64,000 nt of DNA from Candidatus Hermodarchaeota archaeon (GCA_048885525.1 JBHLLP010000002.1:32001-96000), one strand, 5' to 3'. Shown: positions 18,933 through 31,284, counted from the stretch's first letter. Numbers and translations: made by a program. The notes: a model not told the origin generated them from the sequence alone.

Positions 18933-20756
18933 CTAAATAGATTGTATTCTTATTTTATGTATAAGTTTATTTTTTATTTCTTCAAGCTGTTGGAACTCAT
19001 CATTTGGTACCATTTGGCTGATACGTAAAATAGAGGTTGTAAGGTCTGGATCTAATATATCTTTAATTAACTTTCCTTGTTTTATTAGGTTTTTACCTTC
19101 TTTGTATAAAATAAGGATGATTTTGATTAAACCTAATAATTTTGTTATATTAGTATGATTGTCAATCTCATCATATGCATTTTGAATTAAAAATCCATTT
19201 TTTATCATTTTTGCTATAAAGAGTGTTAATTGCTGGTCTTCTAGTAAATTTTTATCTCCAGCTAACTGAATTACATGCTCTAAATCTTGTTCTTGAGATA
19301 AAATTTCGTTAACTAGTTTTCTACATTCTGACCACTCAATTTCTATTTCTGGCCAATCAATATCTCTCTCATACCACCAATCTGCAATAAATTGAGGGTA
19401 ATTTGAATATGAATTATTCCAATTAATGGCAGGATAATGCTTTAAATATGCCAATTTTGGATCTAACGCCCAAAAAGTTTGAACTAATCGTTTAGTTGTT
19501 GAGGTAACTGGTTCACTAAAATCTCCCGCTGGAGGAGAAATTGTACCTACAATAGTTATTGAACCATTTCTCTCATTTCCTTTTTGATCCGTCCCCAAAG
19601 TTTTAACAAAACCAGCTCTTTCATAAAAACTTGACAATTTCGATGGTAGGTAGGCAGGATATCCTTCTTCAGCGGGCATTTCTTCTAATAATCCCGAAAT
19701 TTCTCGTAAAGATTCAGCCCATCTTGATATACTATCCGCAAGAACAACAACATCATAACCCATGTCCCTATAATATTCTGCAATTGTTACTCCAGAAAAT
19801 AAGCTAGCTTCCCGAGCAGAAACTGGCATATTAGAAGTATTAGCCATAAGTATAATTCGGTCTGACAAAGTTCTTCCACTTTTAGAGTCTATTATTTCAG
19901 AGAATTCCTTCATTATATTAGCAATTTCGTTTCCTGGTTCGCCGCAACCAACATATACAATCAAATCTGCTCTACACCATTTAGCTAACATTTGTTGGAT
20001 AACAGTTTTTCCTGTTCCAAAACCACCCGGAATTGCTGTCGTTCCTCCTTTAGCGATTGGAAATAATAAATCAATAGTGCGAATTCCGGTAATTAATGGT
20101 TCTATAGGATTTAATCTCTTATTATATGGACGTCTTTTTGTAATCGGCCACTTTTGTAACATCGCAAATGATTTTTCTTCATGTTTCAGTTTTATTCTAA
20201 ATATCTCATCAATGATCGTATAAGTACCTTCATTTACAATAAAGGAAAGGGTTCCGGTAATATTAGGAGGGACCATGATTCTGTGTTCTATAGATGAAGT
20301 TTCTTGGACAGCTCCAATTATATCCCCATTTTCAACTTTGTCATTAATTTTTCTTAATGGTTTAAAATACCATTTTTTGCTTCTTGAGATAGAAGGATAT
20401 TGTATACCTCTTTCTAACATTCCAGAAAGGATATCCTCAAAAACTATTCCTAAAGGTCTCTGTAATCCATCGAACACATTTGAAAGAAGGCCAGGAGCCA
20501 ATTCCATGGAAAGAGGTTCATTCAAACTAATAACGTCATCATAGAGTTTCAAGTTTGTAGTATTTTCGAAACATTGAGCAACAATATGGTCTGAATAAAT
20601 TTGGATTACTTCACCCAAAATGTTATATTTAGTAATTTTAATTAAATCATGAAGACGAGTTTGATTTTCTAGTCCTTTGACTTTAATCAATGATCCTATG
20701 ATTGCTGAGATATATCCACAATTGAATTTCTTTTTTGAATCATTTTGATTAAGCAT
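18933..20756 (-). CDS. atpA: A/V-type ATPase subunit A, second copy (GER->GEP)
   Basis: GGFGTGKT, NTSNMPVSARE, EEMPAEEGYPAYL; GCGEPGNE replaces GCGERGNE. Confidence 0.92.
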   Translation of the reverse strand: MLNQNDSKKKFNCGYISAIIGSLIKVKGLENQTRLHDLIKITKYNILGEVIQIYSDHIVAQCFENTTNLKLYDDVISLNEPLSMELAPGLLSNVFDGLQRPLGIVFEDILSGMLERGIQYPSISRSKKWYFKPLRKINDKVENGDIIGAVQETSSIEHRIMVPPNITGTLSFIVNEGTYTIIDEIFRIKLKHEEKSFAMLQKWPITKRRPYNKRLNPIEPLITGIRTIDLLFPIAKGGTTAIPGGFGTGKTVIQQMLAKWCRADLIVYVGCGEPGNEIANIMKEFSEIIDSKSGRTLSDRIILMANTSNMPVSAREASLFSGVTIAEYYRDMGYDVVVLADSISRWAESLREISGLLEEMPAEEGYPAYLPSKLSSFYERAGFVKTLGTDQKGNERNGSITIVGTISPPAGDFSEPVTSTTKRLVQTFWALDPKLAYLKHYPAINWNNSYSNYPQFIADWWYERDIDWPEIEIEWSECRKLVNEILSQEQDLEHVIQLAGDKNLLEDQQLTLFIAKMIKNGFLIQNAYDEIDNHTNITKLLGLIKIILILYKEGKNLIKQGKLIKDILDPDLTTSILRISQMVPNDEFQQLEEIKNKLIHKIRIQSI

Positions 20757-20780: not shown

Positions 20781-21200
20781 TTAACTTATTTGTTTATTAC
20801 AAAATGGACATTTTTTAACGAAACTTGGCAAAATATTTCCACAACTTTGACATTTTTTAATTAAAGGTTTATGAGACCGAATTTCTAAATTTATAGGTCC
20901 AGGTATTCTTGGTAGGGATGTTTTTTCTCTTATCATTCTAGTTCGTTTATTAACTGAAGATTTTCGCTTTCTATCTGGAAACATTTCAGAATATAACGAT
21001 CTTTTAGTTCCTTTAAAGAATAAGCCAAGTCCAACTAGAAATAAGAAGGATAATCCAAAAATTACGATAAAAGGGTTAAAATTTAAACTTATTAAATAAA
21101 AGAATAGGATTAAGAGGACTAAGGAGTATATAACTAAAAGTACAATTCTTTTTTTATTTCTTTTATATGTATATCTATTTTGGATATTTTCGGTTGCCAT
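20781..21200 (-). CDS. Two-TM membrane protein with C-terminal zinc ribbon
   Basis: Two hydrophobic helices, basic linker, CQSC...CPFC. Confidence 0.7.
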   Translation of the reverse strand: MATENIQNRYTYKRNKKRIVLLVIYSLVLLILFFYLISLNFNPFIVIFGLSFLFLVGLGLFFKGTKRSLYSEMFPDRKRKSSVNKRTRMIREKTSLPRIPGPINLEIRSHKPLIKKCQSCGNILPSFVKKCPFCNKQIS

Positions 21201-21238: not shown

Positions 21239-23740
21239 TCATCTATATTTTTTAGAGATATAATTAAACGCCTTATCAATTTCCTCTCTAATAGATTCTG
21301 TTTCTATTTCTTTATCAATTTCCTCAGAAATAATATCTTTTTCAGTTATTGTTCTAAAATTGATGATTGAATAATCACTATCTAAATGGAATGGTATATA
21401 TCCAATTCCTGAACCTTGGAAAAATTTAAAAAAGAACTCATAAAAATGCAATCTGAGCGTATTTAGAAAGACTAATAATCCTTCTAATAAAATAACTACC
21501 AGATTTCCGAAGATTAAACCAACCAAATTTATTATTTCTACTCCAATACCTTCTCCTTGAATTAAATCACCCATAAGATTTATCGCATACAATAAAGCAA
21601 TATGGGCTAATGCTAAAGCTAGTATTCTGAGATAAGAAGCAGCATTACTCATAACAGATAATACCGTGTCAAATGTTTCAAGTGAGCCTTCACCGATTAA
21701 TGAAGTATAAGATTCTTTTTTTAGATATGAAATTCTAATTAATTTTCCAAAAGGTTTCAGAACTAATAATAATAAACCAGGTATTATCACTAATAAAATA
21801 GGATATGGAAAAGCTAACCATCCATAAATATCAAATCCGTATACGAAAATTAAGATCGTTCCTCCTGTTAATAGAAAAATTTTCATTAAAGAATCACTTA
21901 GAGCTAAATACTTTCTATGTTGTTTCCAATAATTCAAAAATTGGATAAGCCAACCTAAATTGATATGGAAAACACCTATAATAATCGCAAAATAAAACAC
22001 AGACAATATGTTACCTAGTGGATTATATAAAGTGATATTGAAAAGAGATAAACTAAAGATTCCTAGAAGATTAAATATATACATTATTAGACTAAAAATT
22101 TCTATGACAACGCCTAGGTTAATAAGAAATTTCGCTCCTCTGTACTTCAATGCAAGATCTAAAACTCCCAAAATAATAATTATTCCACCACCTATAGCAA
22201 TATATCCTAAGATTTGTAGAATTTTCGATATAATTGAAGCTATTGAAATTGGGTTAAGATGCCACAGAACATTTCCAAAAATTTCAATTTCATGGAGTCC
22301 AAAAAACTCCCCATATAAAAAACCAACAAAAAATGAAGCCCATCCACAGAAAAAGATAATCCAAGAAAAATTAACAATATCACCACCTCTTTTTCTAAAA
22401 ACTAAAGCTCCAATTAAACCCGAGATAATAAGAACTAATCCATGACCGATATCTCCAAACATTAATCCAAATAATATTGGAAAAGTTATAGCAATAATCG
22501 GTGTAGGATCAATTTCAGAATATGTAGGTGTACCATACATTTTAGTAAGTGCTTCAAAAGGTTTAATTAAAAAGAAATTCTTCATAATTGTTGGAGTTAT
22601 TTCACGTATATCTTTTTCGTCTTCAACATCTTCTAATTCATCCTCTTCTTCTACAGGTTCTTCATCATATTTTAATTTTTTAATAGATTTTTTCTTTTTT
22701 ATTTCTTCTAAACTATATTTTTCTTTTGTAGCACTTTTTTTTGAAATATAAATTGATTCAATTGTAATATTAGTCTTAAAAGTATTAAATAAATTAGTTT
22801 GAACATGATCTTTTTTGGAAGCAGGCACGAAAAATTTTAGAATTAAGCGATTATTTGACTTTCTTTCAAATTGTCTGTTTGCCCAGTTATATTCTTCAAT
22901 ATTTTGTACAATTTCATTGATTCCAGCGAATTTTATCAGGTTATCTCTACCAATTCGATTAAGTTCCTTATAATATCTTACGAGCATCCTTTCAATAAAA
23001 TTAATTTCTTTATTAATTCTTATATGGTTTATTCCCGATTCTGTAAAATATTTCTGTACGATTGGAACTTCTTCAGAATGAATAAGGCGAATCCTTCCAT
23101 TAAACTCAGTTTCTTTATCTCTAGGATAGATTATATAAAATCCAATCCTTTCTTTAGATACTTCAAAAGTCTGATAAAAGTTAGGAAATACAGCAAAATC
23201 GAAGAGATTATTTAAATTATTAAGATTTTTAGTGAAAGTAGTAAATATTCTAAATCTAAATTGATTGATATCCACAAGTGAATCTTTTTTCATATTCAGT
23301 TTCTCTAAACTTTTATAACAAACTTTTAACATATTCAAATTTTCTAATTCAATAGTTCCTTTAGTAACAAAACTTTGTAATTCGTTTAATCGATTAATAT
23401 AGAAATCTACTTCTTCAAAAAGATGGTTAATTAACTCTGATAAATCATTTGCGGTAAATTGGATTTTTTCAGGTTCATTAATTTTCAATTCTGAGAGAAT
23501 AAACTCATTAATATTAAGCTTTTTTAATAAATTATTTAAATTTTGTCTTAAATCTTTAATTTTATTGGAAATTGGTTCTTGTTCTTCTGATTCTTCTTTA
23601 ATTTTAGGTTTATCTTTAGTTTTTATATGAACTGAGGCTAAATTAGATAATTCAATTAGAAATTGATCTCTATAAAGGGGGCTTATTTCTGTTTTCATCA
23701 GATAAAAGTTATCTTTTTTCACCATAATTATCACTTTCAA
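21239..23740 (-). CDS. atpI: A/V-type ATPase subunit I (a)
   Basis: YGTPTYSEIDPT, FGLMFGDIGHG, SYLRILALALAH, LRLHFYEFF; true start may be the ATG 5 codons in. Confidence 0.92.
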   Translation of the reverse strand: MKVIIMVKKDNFYLMKTEISPLYRDQFLIELSNLASVHIKTKDKPKIKEESEEQEPISNKIKDLRQNLNNLLKKLNINEFILSELKINEPEKIQFTANDLSELINHLFEEVDFYINRLNELQSFVTKGTIELENLNMLKVCYKSLEKLNMKKDSLVDINQFRFRIFTTFTKNLNNLNNLFDFAVFPNFYQTFEVSKERIGFYIIYPRDKETEFNGRIRLIHSEEVPIVQKYFTESGINHIRINKEINFIERMLVRYYKELNRIGRDNLIKFAGINEIVQNIEEYNWANRQFERKSNNRLILKFFVPASKKDHVQTNLFNTFKTNITIESIYISKKSATKEKYSLEEIKKKKSIKKLKYDEEPVEEEDELEDVEDEKDIREITPTIMKNFFLIKPFEALTKMYGTPTYSEIDPTPIIAITFPILFGLMFGDIGHGLVLIISGLIGALVFRKRGGDIVNFSWIIFFCGWASFFVGFLYGEFFGLHEIEIFGNVLWHLNPISIASIISKILQILGYIAIGGGIIIILGVLDLALKYRGAKFLINLGVVIEIFSLIMYIFNLLGIFSLSLFNITLYNPLGNILSVFYFAIIIGVFHINLGWLIQFLNYWKQHRKYLALSDSLMKIFLLTGGTILIFVYGFDIYGWLAFPYPILLVIIPGLLLLVLKPFGKLIRISYLKKESYTSLIGEGSLETFDTVLSVMSNAASYLRILALALAHIALLYAINLMGDLIQGEGIGVEIINLVGLIFGNLVVILLEGLLVFLNTLRLHFYEFFFKFFQGSGIGYIPFHLDSDYSIINFRTITEKDIISEEIDKEIETESIREEIDKAFNYISKKYR

Positions 23741-23749
23741 TTTATTTTT

Positions 23750-24385
23750 TTATTTTTCAATAATTAGATCTTTAGTTTTTTTTAATCTGACATAATTTTC
23801 TCTGTCAACTTCCTCTAATATATCTTTTATTAGTTTTATATTAGATTGTAATTGAGGAATTATGATGTTTTTTAAACCATTTATCCTACGATTGATTTTC
23901 TTAAAGTTTATTGCTTGCTTTAAAAGTAAATCTTCAATTTCAGAAAATTCAATTATCTTATTAAAAAATGATTTTAAAGATTTAATTAAATCATCTAAAT
24001 AATGACTCGTATTGTCAAATGTATAAGCAGGTAATTTTTCTTCTTGAATTAGTTCATATGAAATTTGGGGATTAGTAATTCCTACTACTTTTTTGTAAAA
24101 AATCTCAATTGTAGGTTTGTATTGAATTCTACTTAAATTACTTATCAAAAATAATTCATTTTTACCCATCTCTTCATAAGTAAGATTTAATAATTTCATT
24201 GATTCTTTAAAAAGGGTGAGAAATTCTTTTCTAGATTTATTATAATCTTTCCATATAGAACGAAGTAAAATAATTAATTGTTCTCTTCTTAATTCTAAAA
24301 AATTTTCTCCTTTTTGAGCAAAATTTAATCTCTTACGTAAATTTATTAAGTTCGTTTTACTGGGTTTTATCTCTCTAAAACTTAT
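23750..24385 (-). CDS. atpD: A/V-type ATPase subunit D, probable ATA start
   Basis: RRINGL.NIIIP and LEE.DREN..RLKK; conserved N-terminus IKPSKTNL..L..RL..A..G...L..RRE lies upstream of the track start and begins at ATA 24385 (211 aa). Confidence 0.88.
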   Translation of the reverse strand: MSFREIKPSKTNLINLRKRLNFAQKGENFLELRREQLIILLRSIWKDYNKSRKEFLTLFKESMKLLNLTYEEMGKNELFLISNLSRIQYKPTIEIFYKKVVGITNPQISYELIQEEKLPAYTFDNTSHYLDDLIKSLKSFFNKIIEFSEIEDLLLKQAINFKKINRRINGLKNIIIPQLQSNIKLIKDILEEVDRENYVRLKKTKDLIIEK

Positions 24386-24388
24386 TCT

Positions 24389-25780
24389 TTACACCTTTCC
24401 AGAATAATATTTATCAATAAATTTTTGATGAATTCGAAGTAATTGATTTTCAGTTAAATTACCTAATACATCCCAAGCGATATTAAGAGTATGTTCGAAA
24501 TTACGGTTCTCATCTGGTTGTTGATTTAAAAATGTTTGTTCAAATTCTTTCCCGTATTTCAACAAATTATTCTGTTCATAGTTTAACCCATCTTCTCCGA
24601 CAATTGAAATAAGGTCTTTAACTTCTAAATAATTTGAATAAGATGCTAATAATTGAGAGGATGTGTCTGCATGATCCTCTCTTGTTTTTTCACTACCAAT
24701 AGCATCCTTCATTAAACGTGATATTGAAGCTAAAACTTCAAAAGGAGGGTAGATACCTTTTTGGTGCAAACTTCGACTTAAAACTAATTGCCCTTCAGTG
24801 ATGTATCCTGTTGTATCTGGAATAGGATGAGATATATCATCATTAGGCATAGTTAAAATAGGTATTTGAGTAATTGAACCCTTTTTACCTTTAATTTTTC
24901 CTGTTCTTTCATAAATAGATGCAAAATCTGAATAGATGTATCCTGGATATCCTTTTCTGCTAGGAATTTCTTCCTTTGCTGAACTAAGTTCTCTTAACGC
25001 CTCAGCATAGTTCGTTATGTCTATTAGAATAACAAGAACATGCATGTCTTTTTCAAAAGCAAAGTATTCTGCAGTAGTCAAAGCTACTCTAGGTATAATT
25101 AACCTTTCAATTATTGGATCATCTGCAAAATTTATGAATGAAATTATATTTTGGATTGTACCCCGTTCTTGAAATTTATTTAAAAAATAAATTGCTTCAT
25201 CTTGAATAATCCCAATTCCACAAAATATAATTACAAAAGGTTCTTCTGAAGTAACTTTTGCCTGAGTTGCTATTTGAGCAGCTAACTTATTGTGTGGTAA
25301 TCCTTGTGCGCTAAAGATTGGAAGTTTTTGGCCTCTAATTAAAGTAAATAACCCATCTATAACAGATACTCCTGTTTGTATAACATCGACAGGATATTCT
25401 CTCGCATATGGATTAATTGGAAGGCCATTTATATCTCTTTGAATATCAGTTAGAACCTCAGATTCTGAAATCATTTTAGTTTTTATGTCTATGGGTTTAC
25501 CTAGTGAATTAAAAGTCTGCCCAAACATATCTTTAGAAATGTTTACTTTAAAAACATCTTCCGTAAATATTATCTCAGCATTTTCAGATGACAATCCAGA
25601 AGTATCTTCAAAAACTTCCACAACTATTACGTCCTCATTCAATTTTACTATCTGACCCGTACGAGTTTTGCCATCATCTGTGTTAATTTTAACAATCTCA
25701 CCATATTGAGCATCATGTTCGTTTTTAAGAAATACTAATGGACCTATTATTTGGTGAATTTTTCTATAAATTACACTCAT
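24389..25780 (-). CDS. atpB: A/V-type ATPase subunit B
   Basis: RGQKLPIFS..GLPHN, DITNYAEALRE, PDTTGYITEGQ, SISRLMK. Confidence 0.95.
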   Translation of the reverse strand: MSVIYRKIHQIIGPLVFLKNEHDAQYGEIVKINTDDGKTRTGQIVKLNEDVIVVEVFEDTSGLSSENAEIIFTEDVFKVNISKDMFGQTFNSLGKPIDIKTKMISESEVLTDIQRDINGLPINPYAREYPVDVIQTGVSVIDGLFTLIRGQKLPIFSAQGLPHNKLAAQIATQAKVTSEEPFVIIFCGIGIIQDEAIYFLNKFQERGTIQNIISFINFADDPIIERLIIPRVALTTAEYFAFEKDMHVLVILIDITNYAEALRELSSAKEEIPSRKGYPGYIYSDFASIYERTGKIKGKKGSITQIPILTMPNDDISHPIPDTTGYITEGQLVLSRSLHQKGIYPPFEVLASISRLMKDAIGSEKTREDHADTSSQLLASYSNYLEVKDLISIVGEDGLNYEQNNLLKYGKEFEQTFLNQQPDENRNFEHTLNIAWDVLGNLTENQLLRIHQKFIDKYYSGKV

Positions 25781-25782
25781 TC

Positions 25783-27621
25783 TTATTTAAATACCCCATG
25801 GGTTAATTTTAAAGATTCTATTTCATTCAGTAAATTACTTTTTAAATTGTCAATTTTGTCGAAATTTTCGTTCTCAATTGTACGATTAATTCTTAAAATG
25901 TCACGTATCACTTTTAGTTCTTTAATTTCTTCTATAAAAAATCCTTTTTCTAACAGTTCTTCGCCTTCTTTATATAATAATAGAATAATTTTAATCATTC
26001 CTAAAAGTTTTTTCGCGTTTGTAAAGTTATCAATATTATCGAAAGCATTTTGGATTAAAAACCCATCTTTGATTAACTTAGCAATAAATATAATTAATCG
26101 TTGATCTTCTGGGAGATTTTCCTCTCCGATAAGTTGTACAATATATCTTAACTCATTATCTTTTGAGAGAATCTCATTTACTTGTTGACGACAATCATGC
26201 CAATCTATATCAATTTCTGTCCAATCTATATCTCTTTCATACCACCATTCGGAAATATAATCTGGATAATTAGAATAAGAATTTAGCCAATTAATTGCAG
26301 GATAGTGCTTTGAATATGCTAACGCAGCATCTAAAGCCCAGATACCTTGTACAAAATTTTTAGTCGTAGCTGTAACTGGTTCACTAAAATCTCCTGCTGG
26401 AGGTGAAATAGAACCTATAATAGTTAAAGATCCTACTTTTTCTTCTTTAGTTTCTTTTTTTCCAATTAATTTAACAGCTCCAGCCCGTTCATAAAAACTT
26501 GAAAGTTTTGAAGGTAAATATGCAGGATAACCTTCTTCTGCAGGCATTTCTTCTAATAATCCAGAGATTTCTCTTAAGGATTCTGCCCATCTTGATGTGC
26601 TATCTGCAAGAACTGCAACGTCATACCCCATATCTCGATAGTATTCAGCAATCGTTACACCAGAGAAGATGCTAGCTTCACGTGCTGAAACTGGCATGTT
26701 TGAAGTGTTAGCAATCAAAATTATTCGATCTAATAGAGGTTGACCAGATTTAGGATCAATTAATTCAGAAAATTGTTTTAAAACATCGGCTATCTCGTTA
26801 CCACGTTCGCCACAACCTACAAATACAATTACATCGGCATCACACCATTTTGCTAATGATTGTTGAATGACTGTTTTACCGGTCCCGAAACCTCCAGGAA
26901 CTCCAATTGTACCACCTTTAGTAATGGGAAATAATAAATCTATTACTCTTATCCCTGTGATTAAAGGTTCATTAGGTAATTTTCTCTCTTTAAAGGGACG
27001 TGAAATAGTTATTGGCCATTTTTGTAGCATTGAAAAACTTTTTTCTGTATCCCCAATTTGCAATTTATAGATTTTATCAATAATTGTAAAGTCTCCTTCA
27101 TCTGCTAGGAAAGTTAATTTTCCTGAAGTATTAGGAGGTATCATTATTTTGTGTTGTATAATTGGAGTTTCTTGGACTGTACCAATAATATCACCACCAC
27201 TTACATATTTATCAATATTATCATTAGGTAAAAAATGCCATTTCTTTGAACGTGAAAGGGAGGGGATTTCTAATCCTCTATGTAATCCTCCACTTTTAAA
27301 AAAATCGAAAGCTTCTTGTAAAGGTCTTTGAATTCCATCAAAGAAATTCCTCAGTAATCCAGGTGCTAATTCCATAGAAAGAGGTTCTCTCAAATTAACA
27401 ACTTCTTCATTGATTCGTAAATTATTAGTATCCTCAAAGCATTGACAAACTACATGATCAGAATATATTTGAATAACTTCTCCTAAAATGTTATGTTTAG
27501 ATATTTTAACAAGATCATGAATTCGAATCTGGGTTTCTAGTCCTTTAACTTTAATCAATGAGCCAATTACAGCTGAGATATACCCAACTTTAAAATTGGT
27601 TTCAGAATTGGATTTGTTCAT
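25783..27621 (-). CDS. atpA: A/V-type ATPase subunit A (canonical copy)
   Basis: GGFGTGKT, GCGERGNE, ADSTSRWAE, SPPAGDFSEPV. Confidence 0.95.
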   Translation of the reverse strand: MNKSNSETNFKVGYISAVIGSLIKVKGLETQIRIHDLVKISKHNILGEVIQIYSDHVVCQCFEDTNNLRINEEVVNLREPLSMELAPGLLRNFFDGIQRPLQEAFDFFKSGGLHRGLEIPSLSRSKKWHFLPNDNIDKYVSGGDIIGTVQETPIIQHKIMIPPNTSGKLTFLADEGDFTIIDKIYKLQIGDTEKSFSMLQKWPITISRPFKERKLPNEPLITGIRVIDLLFPITKGGTIGVPGGFGTGKTVIQQSLAKWCDADVIVFVGCGERGNEIADVLKQFSELIDPKSGQPLLDRIILIANTSNMPVSAREASIFSGVTIAEYYRDMGYDVAVLADSTSRWAESLREISGLLEEMPAEEGYPAYLPSKLSSFYERAGAVKLIGKKETKEEKVGSLTIIGSISPPAGDFSEPVTATTKNFVQGIWALDAALAYSKHYPAINWLNSYSNYPDYISEWWYERDIDWTEIDIDWHDCRQQVNEILSKDNELRYIVQLIGEENLPEDQRLIIFIAKLIKDGFLIQNAFDNIDNFTNAKKLLGMIKIILLLYKEGEELLEKGFFIEEIKELKVIRDILRINRTIENENFDKIDNLKSNLLNEIESLKLTHGVFK

Positions 27622-28330
27622 AATACTTTAAGTATTCTGTTATTTTTCCCCTCTGTTTATTGATAAATTTTTCATATTCTTTTTCAATTTCTTTAATTTC
27701 TGAATCATCTATAATTTTAGTAACTTTGTTTTGGATAAATGGTGATGCCTTATCTATCAAATTATTAATAGTGTAATCATACGAGATAATCCCTCCTATA
27801 AGTGATATTTTGAAACCTCCTATAAAATCACGTAGATCTTTGTTAATTTCAACAGGATCTTTAAATAAATTTCCAATTTTATCAAAATTTTTGATAAAAT
27901 AATTATAGTCTTTTGAATTAAATAAAATTTCTATGGAATGAGCTTTATCCATGGTATTTTTAACTTCTTCAATAGATTTTAATAAGTAATCAATATATCC
28001 TGAATAATTTTTCTTAATTTTGTTTTCAATAAGAATAAATAAGCTTTTTTTTAACTCCTGAATTAGATTATTCTTTAATCCAAGAAATTTATTTTTTCCT
28101 TCTAAAAGTGTTGATGATAAGGATTGATTTAGAAACTGCTCATAAGTTTCTATAAGATGACTTTTTAATCTTTGAGATCTTTCATTACTTCTTTCTAAAA
28201 ACCTTTTCATAATTTCAGCTTTTTGAAATAAGGTTTTTTGACTTAATTCTTTTATCTCTCTTTGAGCCTTCTCGATAAAGTAATACCCTAATTGACTAAA
28301 TTGTTTCTTTAATTCTTTTTCTTCTGAAAT
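27602..28330 (-). CDS. atpE: A/V-type ATPase subunit E, probable ATT start
   Basis: Position between F and A, FIGGF motif, helical N-half; frame open 40 codons upstream of the track ATG to ATT 28330, 1 nt after the atpF stop. Confidence 0.75.
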   Translation of the reverse strand: MSEEKELKKQFSQLGYYFIEKAQREIKELSQKTLFQKAEIMKRFLERSNERSQRLKSHLIETYEQFLNQSLSSTLLEGKNKFLGLKNNLIQELKKSLFILIENKIKKNYSGYIDYLLKSIEEVKNTMDKAHSIEILFNSKDYNYFIKNFDKIGNLFKDPVEINKDLRDFIGGFKISLIGGIISYDYTINNLIDKASPFIQNKVTKIIDDSEIKEIEKEYEKFINKQRGKITEYLKYYEQIQF

Positions 28331-28331
28331 T

Positions 28332-28667
28332 TTAACTCAACTCATTTTTAAAAACAATATCACCTAAAGCATCTTGAATCTTATTAAAGATAATGTCTCC
28401 TTTCTCAATGTTAGTTTCAAAAATATCTGGTAAAATAAATACAAAGGGCTTTTTATTAGCTTTTTTAAAATCCAATAAAAAGTCAATTATATCATCTCGC
28501 AATGGTATAGATACAAGCAATATACCAATTGATTCTATTTTTATTAAATCTAAGAATTTTTGTAAAAATTCCTCCTCATTTCTAACAACAGTACCTTCTA
28601 TTCCTAAAAGTCCTAATAATATTACTATTTCATCCTCTCCTATGATATGAATTTTTTGAACTTCCAT
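28332..28667 (-). CDS. atpF: A/V-type ATPase subunit F
   Basis: IHIIGEDE...LLGLLGI, IGILLV, ILPD, IQDALG; operon position. Confidence 0.85.
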   Translation of the reverse strand: MEVQKIHIIGEDEIVILLGLLGIEGTVVRNEEEFLQKFLDLIKIESIGILLVSIPLRDDIIDFLLDFKKANKKPFVFILPDIFETNIEKGDIIFNKIQDALGDIVFKNELS

Positions 28668-28978
28668 TAAAAATCAAGTCCTACTTTTTCTATAATTAGT
28701 TTTTGTAAATTTCCTGAATTTTTTTTAAAATCGATTTCAATTTTTTTAAGTGCATTATCCAAATTTTTTTCATAAACATTAGTTTCTTTGTCTATATCAA
28801 CAGTTAGATTTCCTATGGCCGTCTGTACAAGTACATTTATTTTGGTCAGATATTCTTCAAATTTTTGGTTTTGTTTTTCTCTAAATTCTTCGATCTCTTT
28901 CAAGTTGAGGCTTTTAGCGTCACTTATTAAATTATCATAAACTTTTTCAATATCCTTTACCCATTCAAAAATATCCAT
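28667..28978 (-). CDS. A/V-type ATPase peripheral stalk subunit H/G
   Basis: 103-aa helical charged protein (VKDIEK...ISDAK) inside the ATPase operon. Confidence 0.6.
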   Translation of the reverse strand: MDIFEWVKDIEKVYDNLISDAKSLNLKEIEEFREKQNQKFEEYLTKINVLVQTAIGNLTVDIDKETNVYEKNLDNALKKIEIDFKKNSGNLQKLIIEKVGLDF

Positions 28979-29026: not shown

Positions 29027-30088
29027 TTACAGGATTTTATATTTTTCATTGATAATACTAACTAATTTTGGTAAAATGTATAAACGTATTTCTTTATCTT
29101 TTTTGATTAATATTTCTATAATCTTAAAAATTGTTAGATAATCAATGTCTCCGGTTCTAATCTTAAATTTTCTAAAAAAATAATCTAAATATAAAGTTTC
29201 AACTGACCATATTAAATGATTTTTATCAATTTTAAAATTTGAAAAAAGTGATCTGAGTTCTTTTATTTTACCTAATTTTTGATATAGCACTGAGATAAAA
29301 TCTTCTATATTTGATTGTTCGGTTAAAAATAACAGAATGTTACTGTCAAAGAATAAATATGTGTCAACTAAAAATTGTTGTAACAAATTTCTATCAAAAT
29401 TATTATTAATTCCTCTATAAATTATATTTAAATTATAAATCTCAGAGATATATCTTATATAAAAAGAAATTATTGTTTTTTCTTTTGGTTTTAAATATTT
29501 TATCTCATCTATTAAGGTATTGTAAAATAATTGATCTAAAAAAGCTTCAAGAACAAAAATTTCATTAGTTTTTTTAAAATAAAGAATTCCTTCTCTTATT
29601 ACTCTATTATATTTAGTACGTTTCATAAATAATTGAATTTGATCTAAAGAGGATAATTCAATTAGTTCTCTCATGAACTCTGTATTATTTAAGTACTTTT
29701 CAACTAACATATTTACCATTTGCAGTTTTTCTTGAGTACTCATACCTAAAATTGTACCAAGGATGACATGTTTAATATTCATCACTTCATATTTAGACAG
29801 AAAATTCTTCAGAAAATTCTTCATATTTTCCGGAGAATATGATAAAATTTTACCAATTAATTTTATATATGTATGGAAAAGTGCTCTTTCAATATCTTCT
29901 ATTGTATATGTATTAAAACTAAGACCCGGATAATAAACCTTAATATATTCAATAAACTCATTAATATCAGTAATTTCATCTAACTTTTGAAATGTAGATT
30001 CATCCATTATTAGTTGTTTTAAAAAACCAATCTTAATTAAAGTATATGCGTAGTTGGGGACGGTAACACTCGTAAGAAATTCACTCAT
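29027..30088 (-). CDS. atpC: A/V-type ATPase subunit C (d)
   Basis: NYAY, YEVMNIK, LEAFLDQ, EIYNLNIIYRG; size and operon position. Confidence 0.8.
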   Translation of the reverse strand: MSEFLTSVTVPNYAYTLIKIGFLKQLIMDESTFQKLDEITDINEFIEYIKVYYPGLSFNTYTIEDIERALFHTYIKLIGKILSYSPENMKNFLKNFLSKYEVMNIKHVILGTILGMSTQEKLQMVNMLVEKYLNNTEFMRELIELSSLDQIQLFMKRTKYNRVIREGILYFKKTNEIFVLEAFLDQLFYNTLIDEIKYLKPKEKTIISFYIRYISEIYNLNIIYRGINNNFDRNLLQQFLVDTYLFFDSNILLFLTEQSNIEDFISVLYQKLGKIKELRSLFSNFKIDKNHLIWSVETLYLDYFFRKFKIRTGDIDYLTIFKIIEILIKKDKEIRLYILPKLVSIINEKYKIL

Positions 30089-30124: not shown

Positions 30125-30493
30125 TTAAGCTGCTGGTGTTGGGATCTTTGTCCAAAGTAAAATTCCAACAATTAAACCATAAAGTGCTAAGGCTTCACAT
30201 AAAGCTACAACTAAAAAGGCTTTAAAAAATGCTTCTTCTCTCTCTGAAAGAGCTGAAATTGCTGCTGTGCCAACTGTTTTCATAGCCAATGCACTTCCAA
30301 TTACAGAAAGACCAACTGCCAACGAAGCACTTATAGCCATTGCTGCGGCAGTTACTGAATTATAGTAATCAAATGTATCAGGGATTTGTGCTGCAACAAA
30401 AGTAATAATTCCATTTGACGTAAAAATTACTAAGAAAATCAATACTACTTGAAATAACCCTAAACACAAATAAAATTTCTGTTTGCCGTTCAT
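30125..30493 (-). CDS. atpK: A/V-type ATPase proteolipid subunit K (c)
   Basis: Hairpin with ALCEALALYGL ion-carrying Glu, plus extra N-terminal hydrophobic segment. Confidence 0.9.
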   Translation of the reverse strand: MNGKQKFYLCLGLFQVVLIFLVIFTSNGIITFVAAQIPDTFDYYNSVTAAAMAISASLAVGLSVIGSALAMKTVGTAAISALSEREEAFFKAFLVVALCEALALYGLIVGILLWTKIPTPAA

Positions 30494-30648: not shown

Positions 30649-31284
30649 TTACATATAAAGCAAGACTCGTATTCGGTCAGCAATGTCATGTATCCTATCA
30701 GCTAATTGTTCTAATAAAACAATACTATCTCTTAGCCGCAAGAGTATCCTAATATTCAAATCATCATTTCCATATAAATATTCAAGAAACTGTCTGTATA
30801 TTGCATCAACTTCGTTTTCAATCTCATGGATCTTTGTTGTATTACTAAATACAACATCTGGTTTATCTCTTAAACTTTTTATGGTTGATTTTAATACATT
30901 TGCCATCTCAATAGTCTTATTGATCAATTTCTCATATCTTTTAGTTATCTCTTGGTTTTTTTTAGTATCTATTTTTATCTTAGGCAGCATATCGACGAAC
31001 TCTAAAGGATAGTTGATAACATTATCCATTTGGAGGATTAGAGCCACAAAATCACCTAATCCCGCTCCAGATTCAGAAAAGTTTTGAATTAGTTGGATTT
31101 TTATCCCATCTGCATCTTCTTCAGATAGTTGCATCTTACTTTTTTTCTTTTCAAGTGATGATTTGTGCTTCTCATAATCTTCTACCCATCTGTTATAAAA
31201 AACGCCCATATCACTGAGAACAGAATAAATAATTCGAGAGTGTTCAATAAGCATTGTTATGATTTCTTCCCTAATTTTATTCAT
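30649..31284 (-). CDS. DUF47 / PhoU-like protein
   Basis: EEDAD, EIENEVD, LEQLADR..D.AD repeats. Confidence 0.85.
   Translation of the reverse strand: MNKIREEIITMLIEHSRIIYSVLSDMGVFYNRWVEDYEKHKSSLEKKKSKMQLSEEDADGIKIQLIQNFSESGAGLGDFVALILQMDNVINYPLEFVDMLPKIKIDTKKNQEITKRYEKLINKTIEMANVLKSTIKSLRDKPDVVFSNTTKIHEIENEVDAIYRQFLEYLYGNDDLNIRILLRLRDSIVLLEQLADRIHDIADRIRVLLYM

What the first reader, a model, noticed from the sequence alone, without database searches (positions are those of the whole stretch)
18933..20756. Second ATPase A subunit with the catalytic-site Arg replaced by Pro
Seen: a full-length duplicate of atpA ends the operon. Walker A and the catalytic Glu are intact, but GERGNE becomes GEPGNE (CCA at 19937-19935 versus CGT at 26805-26803; two base differences, so unlikely a single read error) and DSTSR becomes DSISR. 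Both copies share an unusual WWYERDIDW segment, implying a lineage-specific duplication. There is only one B gene. Known: this Arg coordinates nucleotide phosphates in F/V/A catalytic subunits. Inference: a nucleotide-binding, hydrolysis-impaired A' that could enter the A3B3 ring as a built-in brake, attractive for energy-starved cells.
Basis: partly seen in the sequence, partly recalled or inferred. Interest (0 to 1): 0.75.

Follow-up and report, generated by a model that had tools for sequence, protein, structure and literature searches.

The report
Arginine-less spare ATPase motor subunit
One family of Loki-type Asgard archaea keeps, at the end of its only rotary ATPase operon, a well-preserved second copy of the motor subunit in which the arginine that grips ATP's last phosphate is always proline. 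It is probably a subunit that binds nucleotide but barely works and so throttles the enzyme; no experiment has tested this.

Summary
Window 18933-20756 (-) encodes a full-length A/V-ATPase subunit A paralogue (A'), 66% identical to the canonical A at 25783-27621. It reads GEP (CCA, 19937-19935) where A reads GER (CGT, 26805-26803). The 99%-complete genome holds one B gene.

The change is neither an error nor decay:
- All 131 distinct A' sequences carry Pro, through all four Pro codons.
- They also keep the P-loop Lys, catalytic Glu, Walker-B Asp and second phosphate Arg.
- dN/dS is 0.09-0.16, against 0.08-0.12 for A.

Only three columns separate A' from A: R273P, I318L and D279N. DSISR is a sub-lineage trait (28 of 131).

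A' ends the operon c-C-H-F-E-A-B-D-I-x139-A' in 26 species genomes of one Lokiarchaeial family. It is missing from related, nearly complete genomes, so presence needs at least five changes on the operon tree. It therefore looks accessory.

New here: A' is as constrained as A in the N-terminal assembly domain (divergence ratio 1.01). It is relaxed about 1.4-fold in the nucleotide-binding and C-terminal domains.

Best reading: A' competes with A for places in the A3B3 head and slows catalysis. The mechanism is inferred from E. coli betaR182 mutants, not shown.

This scan reached the same conclusion on other genomes. I found no paper describing it.

The parts
18933..20756 (-). A': second A/V-ATPase subunit A (607 aa) carrying GEP, the last gene of the operon
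19935..19937 (-). CCA = Pro274, in place of the gamma-phosphate/Pi-binding Arg (A R273; P. horikoshii R264; E. hirae R262; E. coli beta R182)
19800..19802 (-). TTA = Leu319. This is the second fully diagnostic site: Leu in 131/131 A', Ile in 50/50 A
19917..19919 (-). AAT = Asn280, in the 'arm' helix after GEP. Asn in 119/131 A', Asp in 49/50 A
19728..19730 (-). ATA = Ile343 of DSISR. A sub-lineage variant (28/131 A'), not diagnostic
20781..21200 (-). x139: small protein with an apparent two-helix membrane part and a C-terminal CxxC...CxxC zinc ribbon. Present in family operons with or without A'. No family match
21239..23740 (-). Subunit I (a-type stator, 833 aa), assigned by length, hydrophobic C-terminal half and operon position; no family search was run on it
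23750..24388 (-). Subunit D. The conserved N-terminus lies upstream of the first ATG, straight after the B stop, so a non-canonical start is likely
24389..25780 (-). Subunit B, the only B-type gene in the genome
25783..27621 (-). Canonical subunit A (612 aa, GER; CGT at 26805-26803)
27602..28210 (-). Probable subunit E (weak NCBIfam match, 1.2e-07)
28332..28667 (-). Subunit F
28667..28978 (-). 103-aa protein, possibly the H/G-type peripheral-stalk subunit (the only family match is a very weak one to an F-type b' stalk subunit; assigned mainly by size and operon position)
29027..30088 (-). Subunit C (d-type)
30125..30493 (-). Proteolipid c/K subunit

Best explanation
A' is a functional, selected paralogue of the catalytic subunit A of the organism's single A/V-type rotary ATPase/ATP synthase. 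It keeps everything needed to fold, to sit between two B subunits in the A3B3 head and to bind Mg-nucleotide. It has lost one of the four basic groups that hold the gamma-phosphate/Pi, because the Arg of GER is Pro. A subunits never touch each other in the ring, and only three positions distinguish A' from A. A' should therefore compete with A for the three catalytic places in proportion to its abundance. A place filled by A' would bind ADP or ATP, but could hardly bind Pi or stabilise the transition state. Rotary catalysis is sequential, so even one such site should slow ATP-driven rotation by orders of magnitude, which would make A' a built-in throttle on ATP hydrolysis. SHOWN: conservation, purifying selection, operon position, the domain pattern of constraint, and repeated loss. 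INFERRED: co-transcription, assembly into the head, loss of catalysis at the site, and the physiological role.
For: 1) The Pro is invariant: 131/131 distinct A' against 50/50 Arg in family A. All four Pro codons are used among 26 genes.
2) The rest of the site is invariant in A': P-loop K and T/S, catalytic Glu, the Glu of GNE, Walker-B Asp, and the DSxSR Arg that corresponds to E. coli betaR246.
3) dN/dS is 0.09-0.16 for A', 0.08-0.12 for A and 0.10-0.22 for I.
4) Only three columns discriminate A' from A, and none adds a compensating basic residue in the nucleotide-binding domain.
5) In the 26 paired species, the ratio of orthologue divergence A'/A is 1.01 (CI 0.95-1.08) in the N-terminal domain (residues 1-205), 1.43 (1.24-1.66) in the nucleotide-binding domain and 1.40 (1.26-1.56) in the C-terminal domain. 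Constraint on the part that builds the head is unchanged; constraint on the catalytic and C-terminal parts is relaxed.
6) A' is always the last gene of the one operon, 20-55 nt after x139. There is no second B, D or F.
7) In one genus the two copies are 81% identical (elsewhere 57-71%), yet A' keeps P273, L318, L437 and K501.
8) Precedent: in E. hirae V1, A-Arg262 together with Lys238 and B-Arg350 holds the gamma-phosphate (PMC5095293). E. coli betaR182Q/K lack ATP synthesis, have low ATPase and no Pi binding, while MgADP binding is unaffected (PMC3268026).
Against: There is no biochemical, proteomic or transcript evidence for this protein. Nothing shows that A' is in the complex or in what ratio. 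Strict conservation of the catalytic Glu and the whole site would also fit a subunit that still does chemistry. F1 with alanine at catalytic residues still rotates, 10^3-10^4 times slower (PMC5380711), so 'dead' may be too strong. A' is missing from several 97-100% complete genomes of the same family, so whatever it does is dispensable. The timing of the duplication is unclear: A' nests inside the family's A tree (AU p=0.019 against A as a separate clade, a post hoc test).
Confidence: 0.55

Rival explanations
1. A' is a working catalytic isoform with altered kinetics or substrate preference, for example weaker ATP/Pi affinity, another nucleotide, or use under a different ion-motive force. It forms A'3B3 heads under some conditions and is not a brake.
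For: The catalytic Glu, P-loop, Walker B and second Arg are invariant in 131 sequences; a pure dummy would be expected to let them drift as subunit B did. Purifying selection is strong. F1 catalysis tolerates loss of single catalytic residues at a much lower rate (PMC5380711).
Against: All 116 of the 150 representatives at 50% identity whose motif could be read carry Arg at this position. So do both copies in other Asgard families that have two A genes. betaR182K, which keeps the charge, already abolishes ATP synthesis and Pi binding in E. coli (PMC3268026), and Pro is more drastic. No compensating basic residue appears among the A'-specific changes. Constraint is relaxed 1.4-fold exactly in the catalytic domains.
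Confidence: 0.2
2. A' makes an asymmetric head (for example A2A'1B3) with fewer productive sites per turn. That raises the ion-to-ATP ratio so that ATP can be made at a lower ion-motive force: a gear shift rather than a brake.
For: A' looks competent for assembly and nucleotide binding. The family's genome records come from marine sediment samples (record titles). Forced rotation can pass a non-productive site.
Against: Each productive 120-degree step would still need its full energy unless the idle step's energy is stored elastically, which has not been shown for any rotary ATPase. Nothing in the sequence enforces a fixed stoichiometry. A' is lost repeatedly in relatives from similar habitats.
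Confidence: 0.07
3. A' works outside the rotary enzyme, as a soluble ATP/ADP-binding protein or in another ring.
For: It is dispensable in relatives. The head already has a full set of A and B.
Against: A' is always inside the ATPase operon with no partner gene of its own; x139 also occurs without it. The N-terminal domain that builds the head's crown is exactly as constrained as in A. No systematic surface change separates A' from A.
Confidence: 0.08
4. A' is a decaying duplicate or an assembly/sequencing artefact.
For: None beyond the loss of a key residue.
Against: dN/dS is 0.09-0.16. The frame is intact in 26 species genomes and more than 100 database proteins. Pro is kept through synonymous codon turnover. 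The same letters appear in contigs of three runs.
Confidence: 0.02

Closest known systems
Catalytic subunit A of A/V-type ATPases (P. horikoshii 1VDZ/3M4Y, E. hirae 3VR2-3VR6, T. thermophilus 3A5C/7VAI)
   Same: A' has the same four-domain architecture, including the A-specific barrel-sandwich insert. It matches solved A subunits at E about 1e-169. The P-loop, catalytic Glu and Walker B are intact, and it sits in an A/V operon.
   Different: The Arg after the catalytic Glu (P. horikoshii R264, E. hirae R262) is Pro. A' is a second copy beside a canonical A and shares the single B.
Catalytic/non-catalytic pairs of rotary ATPases (A/B, beta/alpha)
   Same: Both are duplicates of the catalytic subunit that keep the fold and the place in the ring but lose catalysis. 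They are examples of pseudo-active sites in a ring.
   Different: B and alpha occupy the alternate ring positions, B has lost the P-loop, and both donate the Arg finger. A' keeps the P-loop and every A-type surface, so it should take an A position. The duplication is recent and confined to one family, not pre-LUCA (PMC10656485).
E. coli F1 betaR182Q and betaR182K laboratory mutants
   Same: The homologous residue is changed. The mutants lose ATP synthesis, Pi binding and most ATPase, but still bind MgADP (PMC3268026).
   Different: Those are engineered changes in the only beta subunit. Here the change is natural, fixed, and sits in an extra copy next to a wild-type one.
Known brakes on ATP hydrolysis in rotary enzymes (MgADP inhibition, bacterial epsilon, mitochondrial IF1, zeta; V1-Vo dissociation)
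   Same: The proposed physiological outcome is the same: limiting wasteful ATP hydrolysis (mechanisms listed in bioRxiv 10.64898/2026.10.01.756066).
   Different: None of these uses a defective paralogue of the catalytic subunit itself.
[quoted passage not shown]
   Same: It may rest on the same two A-type genes.
   Different: In this genome and in 25 related ones there is a single operon with one extra A gene, not two enzymes. A' scores no better than A on the eukaryotic V1-A model (589 against 612 bits). I could not check which genes that paper used.

Membership tests
A/V-type ATPase subunit A (NCBIfam NF003220; Pfam PF02874+PF16886+PF00006+PF22919) | Domain architecture with the A-specific barrel-sandwich insert, and a score above the curated cut-off | tested here: met
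   All four Pfam domains are present. NF003220 scores 724 bits against a cut-off of 470. The stricter equivalog TIGR01043 (cut-off 972) is reached neither by A' (726) nor by the canonical A (749).
A/V-type ATPase subunit A (NCBIfam NF003220; Pfam PF02874+PF16886+PF00006+PF22919) | Walker A GxxGxGK[TS], catalytic Glu, Walker B Asp | tested here: met
   GGFGTGKT, E273 and D341 are invariant in 131 A' sequences.
A/V-type ATPase subunit A (NCBIfam NF003220; Pfam PF02874+PF16886+PF00006+PF22919) | Gamma-phosphate/Pi-binding Arg directly after the catalytic Glu (GER) | tested here: not met
   Pro in 131/131 A'. Arg in 50/50 family A and in all 116 broader representatives with a readable motif.
A/V-type ATPase subunit A (NCBIfam NF003220; Pfam PF02874+PF16886+PF00006+PF22919) | Encoded with B, D, F, C, E, I and c in one operon | tested here: met
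A/V-type ATPase subunit A (NCBIfam NF003220; Pfam PF02874+PF16886+PF00006+PF22919) | Catalyses ATP synthesis/hydrolysis in the A3B3 head | not testable with these tools
   Needs biochemistry.
Non-catalytic subunit B/alpha type | Degenerate P-loop, closest match to B models, alternate ring position donating the Arg finger | tested here: not met
   The P-loop is intact. The B model NF003235 scores 117 bits against 724 for the A model. Only three columns differ systematically from A.
Pseudoenzyme paralogue under selection (working concept, not a curated family) | A catalytic residue is lost, yet the gene is under purifying selection and conserved across species | tested here: met

The most novel reading that the evidence does not exclude
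The head of this ATP synthase is naturally heteromeric at its catalytic positions (A and A' mixed). That gives a rotary motor with fewer than three productive sites per turn. Either it is a one-way, synthesis-biased enzyme whose ATPase is intrinsically throttled, or it is a gear shift that raises the ion/ATP ratio for life near the thermodynamic limit. It would be a new regulatory principle for rotary ATPases, and a second, recent replay of the ancient catalytic-to-non-catalytic duplication.
Probability: 0.3. Interest if true: 0.85.

Novelty: new variant of a known kind. Interest (0 to 1): 0.66.

Why it matters
Rotary ATPases are among the most conserved machines of life, and the GER arginine is held to be essential for catalysis. 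A naturally fixed, strongly selected arginine-less copy of the catalytic subunit, sharing one B subunit and one rotor with the normal copy, would be a new way of regulating the enzyme from inside the ring. It would also be a living example of how a catalytic subunit turns into a non-catalytic one, the step that created B and alpha before LUCA. [quoted passage not shown] It is directly testable with recombinant A3B3DF complexes.

Tried and rejected
- Expression: no RNA holder was listed for the locus. Only sediment DNA runs hold it, so nothing can be said on expression.
Among the 80 loci returned, every match in an ATPase context is Promethearchaeota, but absence elsewhere cannot be claimed.
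The genomic context of other degenerate A-like representatives (Glu replaced) could not be read.
- A phylum search with one of those representatives (P0184) at E<=1e-180 found nothing, which is uninformative.
- x139 as an A'-specific partner: rejected, because x139 sits in family operons that lack A'.
- 'GEP-only' genomes: G147 and G216 show only A', but they also show no B, so these are assembly gaps.
- Independent second origin of A' in one genus: not needed. That A' shares four of the five A'-typical residues, and a single A' clade is not rejected (AU p=0.43).
- A conserved promoter in front of A': none seen in the 90 nt upstream across 26 loci.
- Complex prediction (A' with B) was not run. 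It is a textbook pair that would pass by likeness and would not change my odds.
- One script call returned no answer and was repeated.

Full report
**1. Observation**

The minus strand of the window carries one A/V-type ATPase operon:
- c/K, 30125-30493
- C, 29027-30088
- a 103-aa H-like gene, 28667-28978
- F, 28332-28667
- E, 27602-28210
- A, 25783-27621
- B, 24389-25780
- D, 23750-24388
- I, 21239-23740
- a 139-aa gene (x139), 20781-21200
- a second A gene, A', 18933-20756

The operon ends convergently against a tRNA-splicing endonuclease gene.

A' (607 aa) and A (612 aa) are 66% identical over 601 residues without a gap. I read the codons directly:
- A' has GAA-CCA (Pro at 19937-19935).
- A has GAA-CGT (Arg at 26805-26803).
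- A' also reads DSISR where A reads DSTSR.

The whole 3.58-Mb genome, 99.3% complete, has these two A-type genes and a single B. Contigs from three sequencing runs of one study carry the same letters over the Pro codon.

**2. Which residue is changed**

Aligned to the solved P. horikoshii A subunit, Pro274 of A' falls on R264, directly after the catalytic E263. That position is E. hirae A-Arg262. Together with Lys238 and the Arg finger B-Arg350, it holds the gamma-phosphate (PMC5095293).

The F-type equivalent is E. coli betaArg182. The betaR182Q and betaR182K mutants lack ATP synthesis, have low ATPase and no Pi binding, but bind MgADP normally (PMC3268026).

By the same alignment logic, from my own knowledge of the E. 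coli beta sequence, the Arg of DSTSR is betaR246. The T/I position corresponds to betaI244. DSISR is therefore beta-like and unlikely to disable the site.

**3. Organism and distribution**

The organism is a Loki-type Asgard archaeon: GC is about 29%, and the best database matches are named Promethearchaeota or Lokiarchaeota. Among 300 Asgard species genomes, two A genes about 6.7 kb apart occur only in the window's own family.

I fetched 40 operon loci. Twenty-five species genomes plus the window show the order c-C-H-F-E-A(GER)-B-D-I-x139-A'(GEP).

Other members of the family have the same operon, including x139, but no A'. In some of them x139 is directly followed by the endonuclease gene. 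Five such genomes, 97-100% complete, have exactly one A and one B.

Two genomes in which only A' was found also lack B, so these are assembly gaps. No genome relies on A' alone.

On a tree of the concatenated B, I, C, D and E proteins, presence of A' needs at least five changes. This points to repeated loss of an accessory gene.

Other Asgard families with two A genes carry them on separate contigs, and both copies have GER.

**4. Origin**

A and A' share a 6-7 residue insertion (DIDWxEI) that the sister family and the other Asgard classes lack. The duplication therefore happened inside this family.

In the protein tree, 24 of 26 A' form one clade whose branching mirrors that of the partner A genes. 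The two A' of one genus sit next to their own A.
- A single A' clade is not rejected (AU p=0.43).
- A as a clade separate from A' is rejected (p=0.019, a post hoc test).

The timing is therefore blurred, probably by exchange between the copies.

In that one genus the two copies are 81% identical along the whole length, against 57-71% elsewhere. Their A' nevertheless keeps Pro273, Leu318, Leu437 and Lys501. I read this as homogenisation that spared the diagnostic sites, which argues for selection on them.

**5. Selection**

In a set of 131 distinct A' and 50 distinct family A sequences:
- The Arg position is Pro in 131/131 A' and Arg in 50/50 A.
- Position 318 is Leu in 131/131 A' and Ile in 50/50 A.
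- Position 279 is Asn in 119/131 A' and Asp in 49/50 A.
- No other column separates the two at 85% or more.
- DSISR occurs in only 28 of 131 A'.

The 26 A' genes use CCT, CCA, CCG and CCC for the Pro, and five different codons for Leu318. The residues have therefore been kept through much synonymous turnover.

The P-loop Lys, catalytic Glu, the Glu of GNE, Walker-B Asp and the DSxSR Arg are invariant in A'.

Nei-Gojobori dN/dS over ten close species pairs:

| Gene | dN/dS |
|---|---|
| A' | 0.09-0.16 (one value of 0.28, at a very small dS) |
| A | 0.08-0.12 |
| B | 0.03-0.16 |
| I | 0.10-0.22 |
| x139 | 0.16-0.61 |

A' is clearly not evolving neutrally.

For the 26 species that have both genes, I compared mean pairwise divergence per column among A' orthologues with that among A orthologues.

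| Region | Ratio A'/A | 95% bootstrap CI |
|---|---|---|
| N-terminal 205 residues (beta-barrel crown and the A-specific insert) | 1.01 | 0.95-1.08 |
| Nucleotide-binding domain | 1.43 | 1.24-1.66 |
| C-terminal domain | 1.40 | 1.26-1.56 |

The part that builds the head is as constrained as in A. The parts that catalyse and move are somewhat relaxed, yet their key residues remain invariant. This fits a subunit that still assembles and binds nucleotide but is freed from optimal catalysis. It fits poorly with a protein that has left the complex.

**7. Breadth**

Among the 150 best representatives at 50% identity out of 1.84 billion proteins, 116 have a readable GER motif and none has Glu-Pro. 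A handful of A-like representatives have lost the Glu instead, reading GCGLS, GCGIC, CGAR, CGGR or CGKR.

All ATPase-context matches among the 80 loci returned were Promethearchaeota.

**8. Mechanism**

*Shown:* a conserved, selected, operon-embedded A paralogue that lacks one phosphate ligand and keeps A-like constraint on its assembly domain.

*Inferred:*
- The 20-55 nt gap after x139, and the lack of a conserved promoter, suggest co-transcription with the operon.
- In the A3B3 ring each A is flanked by two B subunits, so nothing visible would stop A' from taking any of the three A places.
- At such a place Pi binding and transition-state stabilisation should be largely lost, by analogy with betaR182 mutants. 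ADP binding should persist.
- Because the three sites fire in sequence, one slow site should throttle ATP-driven rotation. Single-residue catalytic mutants of F1 still rotate, but 10^3-10^4 times slower (PMC5380711).

The most likely role is therefore a built-in limiter of ATP hydrolysis, or a locked storage form of the enzyme.

Alternatives, each with its refuting test, are listed among the rival explanations:
- an altered but working isoform
- a gear shift of the ion/ATP ratio
- a role outside the enzyme

**9. Comparison with what is known**

A' is an A subunit by architecture and score, but it fails one defining catalytic feature. It is not a B-type subunit.

It resembles the ancient A/B (beta/alpha) split in kind. 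It differs in being recent, in keeping the P-loop, and in competing for the catalytic position.

I found no paper that describes it. [quoted passage not shown] That may be this gene pair misread as two enzymes. Here there is one operon, and A' scores no better than A on the eukaryotic V1-A model.

**10. Earlier notes of this scan**

The same feature was found and followed up on other genomes (e1-5605142, e1-4858883, e1-5575467), with the same conclusion. I re-derived the core claims independently. I also added:
- the domain-resolved constraint analysis
- the codon-turnover evidence
- the homogenised-pair evidence
- the loss count on the operon tree
- the 50%-representative survey

**Verdict**

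This is a real, strongly conserved and unusual variant of a universal enzyme subunit. The function is inferred, not shown. It is a new variant of a known kind, and I score its interest at 0.66.

Noticed in passing
window 20781-21200 (-): x139 is a 139-aa protein with two apparent membrane helices and a C-terminal CxxC...CxxC zinc ribbon. It lies between subunit I and A' and matches no family. It is conserved in the family's ATPase operons whether or not A' is present, with dN/dS 0.16-0.6. It may be a lineage-specific accessory subunit of the membrane sector.
   Followed up: partly
window 23750-24388 (-): The conserved N-terminus of subunit D (ISFREIKPSKTNL...) lies before the first ATG and begins straight after the stop codon of B. 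D therefore probably starts at a non-canonical codon.
   Followed up: partly
L067 (G180:C32, operon locus of a 97%-complete family member): The only A-type gene of this genome reads GCGIRGNE, with the catalytic Glu replaced by Ile, and there is no A'. It could be an error in the MAG or an organism whose sole A lacks the catalytic base.
   Followed up: partly
P0177, P0184, P0190, P0207, P0216, P0244, P0248, P0265, P0274: Among A-like representatives at 36-44% identity, several have the catalytic Glu replaced (GCGLS, GCGIC, CGAR, CGGR, CGKR) while mostly keeping the Arg. These are other degenerate A-like proteins, of unknown origin and context.
   Followed up: partly
G168:C71:88174-91611 (L217, L219): The A gene of a same-genus genome is a 1157-aa open frame whose two A-like halves are separated by about 500 residues. 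It is probably an intein-containing A.
   Followed up: no
window 30649-31284 (-): A PhoU_div/DUF47 gene directly precedes the ATPase operon. It is conserved there in most family loci.
   Followed up: no
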